Shown here: positions 27,501 to 33,500 of the stretch, one piece after another
Position numbering within the stretch: position 1 is the first letter of the stretch
How the letters are laid out: every line of letters begins with the position of its first letter
NCBI RefSeq assembly: GCF_032062105.1
Contig: NW_026920828.1
Span: 62,001-126,000, forward strand
Origin: Saccostrea cucullata
Taxonomy: Eukaryota
Direction: 5' to 3'
DNA length: 64,000 bases
Position numbers: made by a program

Positions 27501-30500
27501 ACACCGGCGAGACTTGATGACAGGGGAGGCTTCCTCCATCTTGGTACCTGAACCCTGCTCCTGGGGTTTGTGCCATTACCCTGTTAACGATTCGAGATCG
27601 AGAGAGAGATAGAGAGAGAGAGAGGGTGTTCATTCTACCTGTAATTTCCACTTTTTGACAATCAGGTAGGAAACGGCAAGAATTCATGTGGGAATAGGTG
27701 GAATTTTTGTCTTAACAAATAATTAACTATGAAAACATATAACTTCTATGTTTTAAACAATTATCAACAATTATTGATTACCTGTTGAAATAGAGGACTG
27801 ATATATTTACTTTATAGAATTATAAATACGACTTTTTTAACTAATATCTTAAAGCCATATAAGTAAATTAAATAATTTTTCACAATGTTCATTTTAAAAT
27901 CCAGCTATTTCAATATATTTTCCCCGACAAATCTATTTATTTTATGTTGTAGAATCAAGATATGAAAGTGCTTATTCTTGTAAGACTTTTTTCTTTGTTA
28001 TTTTCTCAAATCCATAAAATTTAGTAATAAATGAAATAGTTCATATTTTTCATTCATTTAGTCGTTATTTTCTGTCTTAAAATGTACAAAATACAGATCT
28101 ATAAATCTAAGAGGGAACGTATTAAAGCCATATATGGCGTATGTACAATGAAAATTATTGGACTAAAATTATAAGAACTTATTATTTGTATCATTACTTT
28201 ATAAAAAGATAGAACTTTTCCGTAAATTACAAAATCTAAATCAATTGCGTTATAAAGATATCACAATTTAATTTGGATTCTCGGAATTTTCTCCGACTCG
28301 GAAGAAAATACAAAAGATTTAAAGAAGATAAAATCGTATTATTAGATGAAACGAGATGTTCTCCGCGTTCAGAATTGTATGAAAAGCTTTAATTTAAATG
28401 TATCAACTATATTTTGTATTTTTCAAAAATATATTTTTTTCTATCAGTTACGCCATATATGGCTTTAAAGTGGGAATAGGTAGAAGACACCGAGAGAGAC
28501 AGCATTTTATTACGAAAGCCGGATAGGCTCATTTCTGAGTAGATAAAAAAATTTAACGCGTTATAACGAGTTAGTTATCTCGTTATAACGAGTTTTAGAA
28601 TTATTTCGTTATAACGACTTAGTTTTTTCGTTATAACGAGATAATTAACGCGTTATAACGAGATAAAAACTGGTCTAAAGTTGATAGATCTAAGTGATTG
28701 TAAGTATAGCACATAAAACCGAGTCGATCAAGTTTGTTTAAAGTGTGTATGATATAGATTTTATTGAAAAGCAGGAAACAAGTTATTTTTTTGTTTTTCG
28801 AGAGCCTGTGCCTGTGACTGTAGTTCGCTTATGTATAAACAATGCGGTTGATTGTTTATTTAAAAGACCGAATACATGTATAAGGAAACTTATGACTGCC
28901 TCGTGATGCTGTGTTATGAGTGGGCAGTAGTCCCCGAATTGTAGGCCCATGACCTAATTGCTGATGTCTCCATATCCCTCTTCTTCAAAACATTTCTGAC
29001 TCTCAAAATAATATATATCACACTGTGAGTTATAACGAGTTAAATGGTTTATTTTTATCTTTTCAGAAATGAACCTATCGTGCTTTCGTATTTTATAGAA
29101 CTGTTAGGGGCAATTATTAGTAATTACACAGAGTAAAAATAATTTGTTATCTGACTCACGTATCAATGACCCTTCGCGCGATTGAAGACGAATTAGATAG
29201 TCCAAAAAGATTCGAGGGCAACCCGTAAAATATGTGACTCAGGTATTTTTTACTGTATAAGAATGTCTATAATCTTCAAGAGAAACGTGCATTTTGCACG
29301 CATTCTCTTAAGTTGATAAGACTTAGCACAGATTTTAAAGAAGAGGCCGAATTGATAAAGATTGTAATAAATAGTAACAAAAGCTTTTTCTAATTCTTTC
29401 AGTAAACAAACAAAATTTCAAGATAAAGAACGCGAAAAGTGATCGATCCTCAAAGATCTTAAATTATTGTATATTTCAAATCAGCAATTCGCTAATCCTC
29501 TTTATATAGAGATTTGTATAAAACAGTAAAAGTATTATGTCTTTACTATTGGTGTTATAGTTATGTTATTTTATGGATTTATTAAATAAGAAAAGTCAAT
29601 GTAAGAAAATAAAATAGCAATTACACCTACACAATATTATCAACTTCAAAGCCAAGTAATTGTAAAATTATACAGTGCTTTTGCTTCTAAAAATTTTGAA
29701 CACGTAAAAAAAAACAATGGTTGAAGAATATTGATGCTAAGACTAGAGAATTCATACTTTAAGTCAATCCGGGAGAATATGATGTTAATATACGTGGATA
29801 GAACACCTGACTGTTTCTTTAATTTTCCTGGATTTTTTTTCAGTTATCATCATTAATTTTAAACAATATCTTTATTGAGACAAAACAATGTAAATAATTG
29901 ATAAAAAATATTTAAATCATCACAGATATCATGCATAAATACACATAACACATATCACTGCTTTTTTAAGCATCTAACAATAAATACTATAAATACCATG
30001 TATTTCATCACACACGATCATTTGGACAACTATTGCTACAAAACAAACAGCTATACTGATAAGACTCTAATTCATCAACCTTGTTTTACTTACAGTAATA
30101 AAAGTAAACCATTTTAATAATACCATTCAAAAGAACCAGCATTGTAGGTTTTAAAATTGAAACAACCTGCATGTACATGTTCAACACAAAGATAGATTTG
30201 TAAGTACACCACCTTCTTTTCAATCTTTTAAATATCATCTACAGAATGACACACGATAAGGCATCATACAATCCATCCCTGGGATGAAGAACTGTCCCGA
30301 TAGCTTTGTTTAACACCCTCTTCATCTTCTTCTCCAGTTCGGGAGAACTTTCAAAAAACCTAGAAGCTCCGATTTTTCTGGCCATTTGGAATCCTTCCGA
30401 AGAACTGATACTTTTTTGCCCATTTTGTCTTAAATTGAATTGAACAGAACAGTCCATTCGGAGATCTGTCTGAGTTCCCACTAAGATTATAGGAACATCA

Positions 30501-33500
30501 CCTAAGCAGCTTTTCAGATGAGGCGCCCATTTTTCTTCCACATTTCTAAATGACGTAGGCTGAACCACCGAATAGCAGACGACAACAATGTCTGCGCCAG
30601 GTAGAATGTGAATACTGTTCTCCTGATCTTTGTCCTAAAATTATTTTTTTTCAAAAACAAAATTAGGAAAATGGAAAATATCTATGTAAAAATCAGCTGC
30701 ATTTTTTTTTATTTTGTGCTAAATTTTTGATGAAGTTTATTTCTATAACAGTACAAAAAGGTATTTTGTGCACAGTATATACACAGTTATCTATTTAATA
30801 TGCATGCGTATCGAAACATATTTCGATTTTCACTTCAATTTGTTTATTTAGAAATAGATAAACAATAAATAAACATTTTGAACCTTCTTAGAAAAATGTT
30901 TGACCTTTTTTATTTTAATTTTGTTTGTTAGAAGTACATCTTTTTTCACTGACTATACATTTCTATGTCTACCTTATACAGCAAATCGGTAATCCTTTCA
31001 TAATCATGAAAAGATAAATTTATTTGTAAAAAGAAAGTAATTCAAATTTACATATTTGTGTATTTGTGAACTAGACTTACAAGCCCTTATCTTATATTAA
31101 AGAATATGCAAAGAAAAAACGTCTTATAGAGTAGAATGAAAATTAGTCGGAATTTGTCAAGTGGACACCGTGGGAAAAGTTTATCAAATATTGACTTAGT
31201 GTGAAGGACAGCCCCAAACATTCTTTATAATCTAGGTATTTATTTATAGGTAACCTTGTTTGTTGTTTAGATAATTTTCAGATTACCCTGCCTATTTTCA
31301 ATTTGTGAGATCGTTTCAAAGGATTGTAAAACGCTGATATCTTTACGCACTGGATGTGTGTTTAGCGAAATCGTTTTCAACATTCCATCTCTATCAAACT
31401 TATAGAATTGAGGAGTTTGCATACTTCTTGTAGCTATTTATGTATTACATAATAAAACAGATTAGAGGGTCTATCTATTTATATTGATTAGCAATCACAG
31501 ATAAAAGTAAATGGCTGGAGAAGGGTAATATATTAAAGAGAGAGGCCTTAGGGTGAATGGGTGGTCCAGGTGTTTAACTTCTCTCTTTCTTGGTGGTATG
31601 ATTAGTTACAATTGAAGGGGACAGTTTATGGTTTTCTTTTGGCTTTTCTATAGTGTAAAAGAAAGTATAAAACGCAAGGTCTAGAGCAATAAGACTATAG
31701 TTAGTGGACCTTGTTTGCCCCCCCCCCCCCAAAAAAAATGTTATTCAAATTACTTTCTTTACAAATGTTACAAAAACAAATTGAAATCGAACTAAATCAA
31801 ACAAATTTGAAGAAAAAAATATTCAACATGGTAATAATATATAAGAAACTTTTTAAAAACTACTTTAAAACATAAGTGCAACTTAGCCTATAATGTAAAT
31901 GAACTCATTCAAAGACATTTGTAATGAATTTTCTTAAAATAGAAGTTCACAGATAACAGAAAAATTTGAAACTTGCCTCTTCCAGGGTGTCGAGAAGTTG
32001 CAGATGATATTTTTTACCAGACATTTCTAAAGTCCCTGCAAAATAGACAAACCATTCAATTATCATCCGTGCATTACACTTAGGAGAGTAATATTTAGAA
32101 GCCAAACATGTAAAGAGATTGCAGGAAAATGTTTTAATTCTGCGACTTTCAAGCTTAAGATATATCATCTTAAGAAAAGGCACAGGTGTTTTCAAAACTA
32201 TATGAATAAAAATGTTTATTAATAGAATACATATCTTGGCATGCTTACGTGATGTGTTAATTATAATGCTGTGTGCTTTTCTGTTTATCTAAACACGCAA
32301 TATACAGCTCCCAGCAAGCTAGATTTTATGTCCAAATTTTCGAAGGCTTTCTTTTTTTTTATCGTACAACAATTTTGATTTAATGCTCCAATTAAGATAC
32401 ATGTAATAGTGTAACTATACATTTGTTCAAATATTCACTGATACTATTGATTGAAATTTATAATAAACTTAAAAGTAAAATACTTCTTTGAAAAAATTAA
32501 AAAAAAATCGACGAGAAAAAATGTCTGTTTGTTCCAGAAAATGATAATTACCTGCATAGTTATCAAAAACACTAGGCACGTGCTTCGTGGGGAATCTGTT
32601 TGTAGCGTAATTCACAAGCAAACTTGTCTTCCCAACGGAATCATCCCCTAAAACAACACATTTAATTAAGTCCGAACGAAGAACCACCATCTCAACTCTA
32701 TGAAGTTTGTCATTCACTAAAAAAATTAAATTCTCCCGTAATCTAATCTTTGGATTGCACCATATCGTATTGTTGACAATTCTCTTTGTTTACATCTGTA
32801 CACGCGCAAGCAGACTAGCGTATAGATTTGAAGGATGTCACGTGATGTTCAAAACTCGCCCTCGCACTATTTACCTATATCATGTGGAATGCAGAAAATC
32901 CACAGGTGGAAAATAAACACAATTTAGAAGGGATGTGTCTAAGTGTCTAAATAATGAAGAATCGTTGCATGGGCGTCCTGTGGTCATTATTACCGATAGG
33001 ATCGTACGGTTTTATCACGGATTTGATCAGCCGTTATTCTGTTAGATATGAGTTTGTACTTCAAAGTCTTTTTTAAAATAACAAAAAAAAAGTGAAGAAA
33101 AGAGTATCTTTTCTTAATGCTGGACAATATATACCTACTTTAATATTTTCGGAGTTTTGAGTATACATGTATAAATTTGAATGTAAAGGAAAGAGATATT
33201 GAACATTTTCTAAGGGTTATCTGGTAGAAAATAAAATGATTCATCTTAAAAAATAATTTTTTATCCATTCTTAGGCACAACATTTTACAGATTATACCCT
33301 AAACCTTTCCAATTACTTTTAGTTATCACTTCCTTTCGTTAATAACTATATTTTTGGTACTTTCATCTGGTTCCATAAATGTTATCTGTTATTATTTGTA
33401 ACGAATCATTTAATTTGTCTCATATTGTTTGTATCATTTTTCAGTTCATGAACTTTACATAACCCAGGAAAATTAAGAAACACATAAAATGTTGTTTTTT

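What the first reader, a model, noticed from the sequence alone, without database searches (positions are those of the whole stretch)
30239..32690. Naturally G12D-type Rho with a destroyed G3 box and a wholly replaced switch II: candidate pseudo-GTPase
Seen (Cdc42 numbering, gap-free): G12D, A13S, Y32H, T35S, A59L, G60E, Q61E. Switch II EDYDRLRPLSY becomes DKDQENSIHIL and G5 is ESSP. The P-loop GKT, F28, FDNY, TQTD, the full insert and a geranylgeranyl-type CVIL are retained and the ORF is intact. Known: substitutions at 12, 59 and 61 abolish hydrolysis in Rnd, RhoH and RhoBTB, but those keep G60; loss of DxxG is more like RGK proteins or pseudo-GTPases. Inference: a membrane-anchored, non-switching Rho controlled by expression and using non-standard partners.
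Basis: partly seen in the sequence, partly recalled or inferred. Interest (0 to 1): 0.75.

Follow-up and report, generated by a model that had tools for sequence, protein, structure and literature searches.

The report
Conserved molluscan Cdc42-like pseudo-switch GTPase
An intact oyster gene encodes a lipid-anchored Cdc42 relative whose catalytic and switch residues were replaced long ago; bivalves and snails all keep the same altered protein, so it is probably a working non-standard signalling protein, not a broken gene.

Summary
Window 32690..30239 (minus strand) holds a 3-exon, 197-codon Rho gene. Each exon, translated on its own, equals the matching segment of RefSeq XP_062566228.1 "cdc42 homolog" of Saccostrea cucullata.

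It is neither a pseudogene nor a splicing artefact. No alternative exon restores DTAGQ. Oyster orthologues keep [10 protein letters not shown][LI]EE and ESSPE.

In it G10, D11, G15, K16, T17, F37-D38-N39, D57 and D118 are 35 of 35. G60 is 0 of 35, Pro159 is 34 of 35, and 34 of 35 have a CAAX box.

Best reading: a geranylgeranylated, nucleotide-binding Rho that cannot use the canonical GTP switch or GAP/GEF cycle. Biochemistry is untested.

The genes are annotated as cdc42, RhoJ or RhoQ homologues. Four searches found no description of the family's altered motifs.

Novelty: new variant of a known kind. Interest 0.5.

The parts
32552..32690 (-). Exon 1: ATG plus 46 codons and 1 nt (phase 1). It carries the P-loop and switch I.
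   Evidence: equals P0157 residues 1-46
32625..32648 (-). G1 / P-loop GDDSVGKT (G12D, A13S; K16 and T17 kept)
   Evidence: Family counts: position 12 is D in 30 of 35; K16 and T17 are 35 of 35.
32036..32551 (-). Intron 1, 516 nt, GT..AG
31977..32035 (-). Exon 2, 59 nt, (G)TLEMSGKKYHLQLLDTLEE
   Evidence: equals P0157 residues 48-66; identical in P0003 and P0006
31977..31991 (-). Altered G3 box DTLEE (D57 kept; A59L, G60E, Q61E)
   Evidence: G60 is 0 of 35 in the family.
30635..31976 (-). Intron 2, 1342 nt, GC..AG (GAG|GCAAGT ... TTTTAG)
   Evidence: The junction is confirmed by RefSeq and transcript-length proteins.
30239..30634 (-). Exon 3: 131 codons plus the TAG stop
   Evidence: equals P0157 residues 67-197
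30602..30634 (-). Replaced switch II, DKDQENSIHIL (Cdc42 62-72)
   Evidence: It is the least conserved structured segment in the family (0.40). Residues 66-72 of the model have pLDDT below 50.
30464..30475 (-). G4 box TQTD (D118 kept)
   Evidence: D118 is 35 of 35.
30338..30352 (-). Altered G5, ESSPE (C157S, A159P, L160E)
   Evidence: Pro159 is 34 of 35.
30242..30253 (-). CAAX box CVIL. The Leu end marks a geranylgeranyl-type box (established knowledge).
   Evidence: CAAX in 34 of 35, with last residue Leu in 30 of those 34.

Best explanation
The locus is the Saccostrea cucullata copy of an old Rho subfamily that branched from Cdc42-like genes and is kept in bivalves and gastropods.

At the family's origin the parts that make a Rho protein a switch were replaced. 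These are Gly12, the DxxG glycine (G60), usually Gln61, the rest of switch II, and Ala159 of G5. The parts that hold a guanine nucleotide and Mg2+ (GxxxxGKT, D57, TQxD), the effector strand (VFDNY) and the geranylgeranyl CAAX box stayed under purifying selection.

The protein most likely still binds a guanine nucleotide. It probably cannot sense or hydrolyse the gamma-phosphate in the canonical way. It also lacks the switch II surface that DH-type GEFs, RhoGAPs and RhoGDI use. It would therefore act as a permanently membrane-attached, non-cycling Cdc42-like adaptor whose output depends on its abundance and location.

Shown here: gene structure, intactness, conservation pattern, clade and fold. 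Inferred: nucleotide binding, lack of hydrolysis, independence from GAP/GEF/GDI, prenylation, and control by expression.

The confidence of 0.65 is for the whole statement. That this is a real, conserved atypical Rho gene I hold at about 0.95. The mechanistic part I hold at about 0.6.
For: - Gene and splice model: each window exon equals RefSeq P0157. P0003 and P0006 show the same junctions. Members of the Crassostrea-type cluster lie on contigs of 905-1453 nt that carry the complete 197-aa ORF, so these are spliced transcripts by inference.
- No rescue exon: tblastn of P0003 and P0006 against the whole window hits only the three exons and a separate paralogue at 15174-19891. The next hit has E 0.13.
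- Clade: 35 family rows form one side of a branch with support 100/100 and a stem of 0.96 changes per column. SH-aLRT is still 100 after 22 trait columns were dropped. Gastropods (99/97) and oysters (100/100) are each starred groups within it; the bivalve groups branch from an unresolved base.
- Constraint (n = 35): G10, D11, G15, K16, T17, F37, D38, N39, D57 and D118 are 35 of 35. G60 is 0 of 35 (E 26, D 5, Q 3, S 1). Position 12 is D in 30. Position 159 is P in 34. CAAX is present in 34, with Leu last in 30 of those 34.
- Segment conservation: P-loop 0.87, switch I 0.86, switch II 0.40, whole protein 0.64.
- Fold: AlphaFold2 mean pLDDT 82.6 and pTM 0.82, with pLDDT below 50 only at residues 66-72 (Cdc42 61-67) and in the tail. 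The best solved matches are Cdc42 and Rac, with TM 0.80-0.90.
- Rarity: 131 of 150 nearest cluster representatives keep G at position 60.
- Known precedent: GTPase-deficient Rnd and RhoH lack Gly12 and are controlled by expression level and turnover (PMC13236570, passages).
Against: - No biochemical or expression data exist for this protein. The fold model carries no ligand.
- Pro159 (34 of 35) removes a backbone NH that in Ras-type GTPases contacts the guanine base (recalled knowledge). Nucleotide affinity may therefore be low, which favours the fast-exchange or empty-protein rivals.
- T35 is not conserved (S 23, T 4, P 3, A 2, N 2, E 1 of 35), so Mg2+ and gamma-phosphate contact through switch I is not under uniform selection.
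- Position 61 is E in 16 and Q in 11 of 35. A Glu at 61 in Ras is, as I recall, hydrolysis-competent, so 'catalytically dead' is not proven.
- If Li et al.'s 'Tc10' is this family, scallop expression is very low: mean RPKM below 8 and below 1 across developmental stages (PMC4669188, section 11).
Confidence: 0.65

Rival explanations
1. It is a nucleotide-free pseudoGTPase. The G domain is only a scaffold, and the altered G3 and G5 boxes have abolished nucleotide binding.
For: G60 is 0 of 35 and Pro159 is 34 of 35. Three acidic side chains (D12, E60, E61) sit where the gamma-phosphate would lie (the geometry is inferred). Switch II has low model confidence.
Against: K16, T17, D57 and D118 are 35 of 35 across bivalves and gastropods, and G10, D11 and G15 are also invariant. 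Selection on exactly the phosphate-, Mg2+- and guanine-contacting residues is hard to explain without a bound nucleotide.
Confidence: 0.12
2. It is still an active GTPase with non-canonical chemistry. A carboxylate at position 60 or 61 positions the water, and Pro159 makes the protein a fast self-exchanger, so it cycles without GEFs.
For: An acidic or amide residue sits at position 60 in 34 of 35 members and at position 61 in 28 of 35. RhoD and RhoF are constitutively GTP-loaded through fast exchange (PMC13236570, passage). As I recall, Ras Q61E hydrolyses GTP and Ras A146 mutants exchange fast.
Against: Position 61 is not fixed: 8 of 35 members have G, Y, A, D, V or M there. Position 12 is Asp in 30 of 35, and substitutions at position 12 impair hydrolysis (PMC13236570, passage). 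Loss of the G60 amide removes the canonical gamma-phosphate sensor (established knowledge).
Confidence: 0.15
3. It is a decaying duplicate or an annotation or splicing artefact. On this view the real transcript uses other exons, or the gene is a young pseudogene.
For: Intron 2 uses a rare GC donor. Several catalytic motifs are lost at once.
Against: The ORF is intact and equals RefSeq P0157. Full-length 192-212-aa orthologues occur in 13 named bivalve and 13 named gastropod species among the tree rows, and the gene tree recovers gastropods and oysters as starred groups. Exon 2 is 100% identical to the orthologues P0003 and P0006. No alternative exon exists in the window. GAG|GCAAGT fits the usual consensus for GC donors (recalled).
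Confidence: 0.02

Closest known systems
Cdc42 (and the canonical molluscan Cdc42-like paralogues that I labelled 'RVLAY' and 'C42b')
   Same: It has the same fold (TM 0.80-0.90) and aligns without gaps, including the Rho insert. It keeps a TQxD-type G4, the VFDNY effector strand and a CAAX box ending in Leu. It lies in a clade with the two canonical molluscan groups (100/99).
   Different: It is only 43-46% identical to an oyster Cdc42. G12, G60, Q61, switch II and A159 are replaced. It has no polybasic tail: the family mean is 1.17 K/R in the 10 residues before the Cys. It lies outside the Cdc42 group in the tree.
Rnd1-3 and RhoH (GTPase-deficient atypical Rho proteins)
   Same: It has a non-glycine at position 12 and an altered G3/switch II while keeping G1 and G4. 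The expected consequences are the same: no hydrolysis, insensitivity to GAPs, and control by abundance (PMC13236570, passages).
   Different: As I recall, and untested here, Rnd and RhoH keep the DxxG glycine. This family has none in 35 members and also carries Pro159. It branches from Cdc42-like genes. It is geranylgeranyl-type, whereas Rnd is farnesylated (recalled).
RGK proteins (Rad, Gem/Kir, Rem, Rem2)
   Same: The G3 box has Glu in place of the DxxG glycine: DXWEX in RGK (PMC3141262, passage) and DT[LVI]E[EQ] here.
   Different: RGK proteins belong to the Ras branch and have no Rho insert. As I recall, they have long terminal extensions and no CAAX box. Here the insert and CAAX are present, and all solved-structure matches are Rho family. 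The resemblance is convergent, not membership.
Bivalve 'Tc10' of Li et al. 2015 (PMC4669188)
   Same: Both are 3-exon genes of similar size: scallop 201 aa and CgTc10 178 aa there (Table 1), against 197-198 aa here. The paper places TC10 in a 33.5-48.2% similarity band. That band fits this family's 43-46% identity to Cdc42 and does not fit the canonical sisters at 59-68%.
   Different: The sections and passages I read do not mention loss of G12, G60, Q61 or A159 in Tc10. They also state that all introns follow GT/AG.

Membership tests
Rho family of the Ras superfamily | Small-GTPase (Ras-type) G domain | tested here: met
   Pfam PF00071 matches exon 1 (E 3.7e-08) and exon 3 (E 1.9e-14). The model has pTM 0.82 and its nearest solved folds are Cdc42 and Rac.
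Rho family of the Ras superfamily | Rho insert between G4 and G5 | tested here: met
   Exon 3 residues 11-121 align to Cdc42 72-182 without a gap.
Cdc42 proper (the RefSeq name 'cdc42 homolog') | Canonical G1, G3 and switch II (GDGAVGKT, DTAGQEDYDRLRPLSY) | tested here: not met
   The sequence is GDDSVGKT and DTLEEDKDQENSIHIL.
Cdc42 proper (the RefSeq name 'cdc42 homolog') | Groups with Cdc42 orthologues in a tree | tested here: not met
   It lies in a separate 35-row clade (100/100). The six Cdc42 rows form their own group (98/87).
TC10 / RhoQ / RhoJ (the names 'RhoJ-like' and 'RHOQ-like') | Orthology to vertebrate RhoQ or RhoJ | tested here: inconclusive
   TC10 (2atx) is the top solved match of exon 3 by only 0.5 bit over Cdc42. 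The canonical sister groups score best against Cdc42, not TC10. No vertebrate RhoQ or RhoJ row was in the tree.
GTPase-deficient atypical Rho (Rnd / RhoH type) | Non-glycine at position 12 and a non-catalytic residue at position 61, with G1 and G4 kept | tested here: met
   D12 and E61 are present; GKT and TQTD are kept.
GTPase-deficient atypical Rho (Rnd / RhoH type) | No intrinsic or GAP-stimulated GTP hydrolysis; constitutively nucleotide-loaded | not testable with these tools
   This needs recombinant protein and nucleotide assays.
PseudoGTPase (a G domain with a degenerate G motif and no catalysis) | At least one G motif lost | tested here: met
   The G3 DxxG glycine is absent in 35 of 35 members, and the G5 Ala is replaced by Pro in 34 of 35.
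PseudoGTPase (a G domain with a degenerate G motif and no catalysis) | Loss of catalytic activity, and knowledge of whether nucleotide is bound | not testable with these tools
   This is inference from motifs only.
RGK family | DXWEX in G3, Ras-branch G domain, no Rho insert, no CAAX box | tested here: not met
   Only the Glu at the G60 position is shared. There is no Trp. The Rho insert and CAAX are present, and all matches are Rho family. The motif is cited from PMC3141262.

The most novel reading that the evidence does not exclude
Bivalves and gastropods have kept, since before their Cambrian split, a dedicated Rho 'anti-switch'. It is a geranylgeranylated Cdc42 look-alike. Its conserved acidic cluster (D12, E/D60, E/Q61) and Pro159 hold it in a single nucleotide state: either GDP-locked because the gamma-phosphate is repelled, or carrying an extra metal ion. 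It presents an unchanged Cdc42 effector strand on endomembranes. In that way it would act as a constitutive decoy or competitor for Cdc42 effectors, and not as a signal relay. This would be the first Rho-family protein with an RGK-type G3 box and a phylum-scale example of a nucleotide used as a structural cofactor in a Rho.
Probability: 0.25. Interest if true: 0.7.

Novelty: new variant of a known kind. Interest (0 to 1): 0.5.

Why it matters
Atypical, GTPase-deficient Rho proteins (Rnd, RhoH, RhoBTB) are known mainly from vertebrates, and as I recall they keep the DxxG glycine. Here an independent, much older experiment of the same kind is preserved in two large molluscan classes. It has a different solution: Glu at G60, Pro at 159, usually Asp at 12, and a free-evolving switch II.

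This gives a natural test of which G-domain contacts are needed once switching is abandoned. It also corrects database names ('cdc42 homolog', 'RhoJ-like', 'RHOQ-like') that would mislead functional inference in oyster immunity and development studies, where Cdc42 pathway genes are often read from annotation.

Tried and rejected
- Alternative exon 2 or 3 restoring DTAGQ: tblastn of two orthologues against the whole window found none. Rejected.
- A GT donor 4 nt downstream of the GC donor: it would break the reading frame with every AG acceptor near exon 3 (read). Orthologue proteins also use the GC junction. Rejected.
- Non-molluscan members: the long high scorers (P0188, P0183, P0189, P0201, P0010, P0295) are tandem or duplicated canonical Rac/Cdc42 models. 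Lingula P0217 is canonical. Rejected.
- Naming the canonical sister groups as TC10: both score best against Cdc42 structures. Left open.
- RNA-seq junction counts: no tool offers them.
- Complex prediction: not used, because no specific partner is claimed.
- The first structure request was not sent because the queue was full. It was repeated and answered.
- The neighbouring Rho paralogue could not be assigned to a subfamily from its last exon.
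Full report
**What is there.** The window is AT-rich animal DNA, about 32% G+C.

On the minus strand between 32690 and 30239 lie three exons of 139, 59 and 396 nt. Intron 1 is 516 nt and uses GT..AG. Intron 2 is 1342 nt and uses a GC donor in the context GAG|GCAAGT with a TTTTAG acceptor. The exon products are 46 residues, 19 residues plus a split Gly codon, and 131 residues. Exons 1 and 3 each match Pfam Ras.

I searched the spliced model exon by exon. The joined window protein was never built, searched or folded. 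Full-length analyses used database proteins returned by the tools.

**Checking the observation.** Exon 3 residues 11-121 align to human Cdc42 72-182 without a gap. The exon 1 and exon 2 segments align without gaps to a bovine CDC42 record. So are the replaced switch II (DKDQENSIHIL), the ESSPE G5, the retained GKT, F28, FDNY and TQTD, the full insert, and CVIL.

Each exon translated separately is identical to the matching segment of RefSeq XP_062566228.1, 'cdc42 homolog' of Saccostrea cucullata (P0157).

**Is the model real?** tblastn of two orthologues against the whole window finds only the three exons and a separate paralogue at 15174-19891. The next hit has E 0.13, so no alternative exon restores DTAGQ. 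Exon 2 is 100% identical to both orthologues used.

The Crassostrea-type cluster includes the C. gigas protein K1RDM5 / XP_011434235.1, seen on 709 contigs. It also includes unnamed members on contigs of 905-1453 nt that hold the complete 197-aa ORF. A phase-1 split ORF cannot be continuous in genomic DNA, so I take these contigs to be spliced transcripts. That is an inference, and it concerns Crassostrea, not S. cucullata.

**Relatives.**
- The exon-3 search returned 4 proteins from 5 candidates.
- An exhaustive search of 1.84 billion cluster representatives with P0003 gave 17,460 hits at E up to 0.001. Among the best 150, only P0009 (Mya arenaria) and the fragment P0142 share the signature. 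131 of the 150 have Gly at position 60.
- A profile of 7 family sequences gave 3,513 hits at E up to 1e-20 among 5,609 candidates, of which 120 were listed.
- From those 120 I tabulated 55 rows: every single-domain-length row down to the Lingula row (216 bits), the 345-aa fused model P0203, the four other oyster orthologues, and canonical comparators that I chose. 39 rows carry the family signature, 15 are canonical DTAGQ, and one (P0251) is a canonical-type model with a disrupted G3.
- A 35-row profile scored only the 8,000 candidates sharing most words. It added Haliotis asinina and Elysia crispata. It shows a gap between single-domain members (264 bits or more) and single-domain non-members (241 bits or less).
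- Named members come from 14 bivalve species (15 counting C. angulata) and 15 gastropod species. No cephalopod, chiton, annelid or brachiopod member was seen among the listed rows. Given the word prefilter, that is not proof of absence.

**Tree.** The tree had 60 rows. 35 were family members; I left out of the 38 full-length family rows two Mya near-copies and one 345-aa fused model. The other rows were 6 'RVLAY', 5 'C42b', 6 Cdc42 and 8 others. These group labels are mine, taken from motifs or source names.

The family is one side of a branch with support 100/100 and a stem of 0.96 changes per column. It lies inside a clade (100/99) with the two canonical molluscan Cdc42-like groups and apart from Cdc42 proper. 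With the 22 trait columns removed, the clade keeps SH-aLRT 100 (quick method). Within it, gastropods (99/97) and oysters (100/100) are each starred groups, while the bivalve groups branch from an unresolved base. This fits one origin before the bivalve-gastropod split followed by vertical descent. The Cambrian age of that split is recalled knowledge. The root was set on two long, motif-labelled rows, and the program warns about such joins.

**Conservation pattern (n = 35).**

| Position(s) | Count |
|---|---|
| G10, D11, G15, K16, T17, F37, D38, N39, D57, D118 | 35 of 35 each |
| 12 | D 30, E 2, P 1, S 1, G 1 |
| 32 | H 30 |
| 35 | S 23, T 4, P 3, A 2, N 2, E 1 |
| 60 | E 26, D 5, Q 3, S 1, G 0 |
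| 61 | E 16, Q 11, others 8 |
| 159 | P 34, T 1 |
| CAAX box | present in 34; last residue Leu in 30 of those 34 |

The mean frequency of the commonest residue is 0.87 for strand 1 plus the P-loop, 0.86 for switch I, 0.40 for the rest of switch II, 0.44 for the insert, and 0.64 overall. The family diverges faster than Cdc42: 55.6% identity for Saccostrea versus Solemya, against 83.6% for Cdc42 of Pinctada versus Solemya (the species pairs are not identical).

**Structure.** AlphaFold2 on alignment A3 (first row P0157) gives mean pLDDT 82.6 and pTM 0.82 with the canonical order of strands and helices. pLDDT falls below 50 only at residues 66-72 (Cdc42 61-67) and in the C-terminal tail. The best solved matches are Cdc42 and Rac complexes, with TM 0.80-0.90.

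**Mechanism.** From established knowledge of Ras-type GTPases:
- K16 and T17 hold the phosphates and Mg2+.
- D57 holds Mg2+ through a water molecule.
- D118 selects guanine.
- The G60 amide and T35 sense the gamma-phosphate.
- Q61 positions the attacking water.
- Residue 12 must be Gly for GAP-assisted catalysis.

Selection here keeps the first set and discards the second. The best reading is therefore a nucleotide-binding Rho that does not hydrolyse and does not switch. The freely evolving switch II also argues against the usual GEF, GAP and GDI contacts.

The Leu-ending CAAX box predicts geranylgeranylation. The tail has few basic residues: a family mean of 1.17 K/R in the 10 residues before the Cys. 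This suggests endomembranes more than the plasma membrane.

The invariant effector strand suggests that some Cdc42-type partners may still bind.

Pro159, the variable residue at position 35, and Glu or Gln at position 61 keep two rivals alive: an empty scaffold, or an unconventional fast-exchanging enzyme. Only assays can decide between them.

**What is known.**
- Li et al. 2015 (PMC4669188): I read the outline, sections 9, 10 and 11, and search passages. The paper catalogues bivalve Rho genes, including a 3-exon 'Tc10'. Similarity bands suggest that this is the family described here. The parts I read do not mention these substitutions.
- The RGK G3 motif DXWEX is cited from a passage of PMC3141262.
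- The behaviour of Rnd and RhoH is cited from passages of PMC13236570.
- Searches for the six RefSeq and UniProt accessions found 0 papers. A search combining Rho GTPase, mollusc and pseudoGTPase found 0 papers. The broader searches listed nothing on this family.
- These searches cover only the held library. Subscription journals and supplements may hold a description.

**Left unchecked.**
- The metagenome and viral contig collections (closed).
- Paper supplements (closed).
- RNA-seq.
- dN/dS, because no orthologue DNA was reachable.
- All biochemistry.

**Verdict.** The feature is a real, conserved, atypical Rho subfamily that databases mislabel as Cdc42, RhoJ or RhoQ. It is a new variant of the known class of GTPase-deficient Rho proteins.

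Noticed in passing
window 15072-19954 (+): A second Rho-family gene lies convergent to the first, with the same 3-exon layout. Exon 1 is near 15072-15317 (GDGGTGKT, with an N-terminal extension). Exon 2 is 59 nt at 19311-19369 and ends in a canonical ...LDTAGQ with a CAG|GTAAGT donor. Exon 3 is 19553-19954 (ETYDRLRTLAYS...). Its insert is 6 residues shorter and it ends ...RRRTMKF without a CAAX box. The last exon scores best against Cdc42 but cannot be assigned to a subfamily.
   Followed up: partly
window 267-1871, 4046-5719, 8207-9700 (all -): Three tandem single-exon ORFs of 534, 557 and 497 aa each match Pfam 7tm_1, the rhodopsin-family GPCRs (E 1e-22 to 3e-24). They have long third loops. 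This is a local GPCR expansion.
   Followed up: partly
window 36441-42370 (-): An uninterrupted 1773-aa ORF carries the Pao retrotransposon peptidase domain and DUF5641, with an overlapping upstream 214-aa ORF. It sits in a block of 43-45% G+C against about 32% background. This looks like a young BEL/Pao-type LTR retrotransposon.
   Followed up: partly
window 45460-46605, 52791-54086, 59808-60935 (all +): Three paralogous long exons of 375-431 aa each match Pfam MFS_1 and, more weakly, Sugar_tr. They are tandem major-facilitator transporter genes.
   Followed up: partly
window 22183-23047 and 26753-27079 (-): Short ORFs share motifs such as ...YLDILLEKDVNGNLTTKLYDKRDDFNFSIVNF.... They look like two copies of a degraded repeat-element ORF. 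The one piece scanned had no Pfam match.
   Followed up: no
window about 7100-7250 and 18250-18560: Long TA-rich dinucleotide microsatellites read as (IY)n in ORF listings.
   Followed up: no
near the 3' end of the window (about 63.4-63.5 kb): A run of 149 N was left as it is.
   Followed up: no
proteins P0009, P0181, P0182 (Mya arenaria; not in the window): Mya arenaria has three near-identical family models on one chromosome-scale contig. They carry Pro at position 12 and Thr at 159, and a C-terminus that lacks a CAAX box (...CCLQPSNFP). This is either a derived lineage or a mis-modelled last exon.
   Followed up: no
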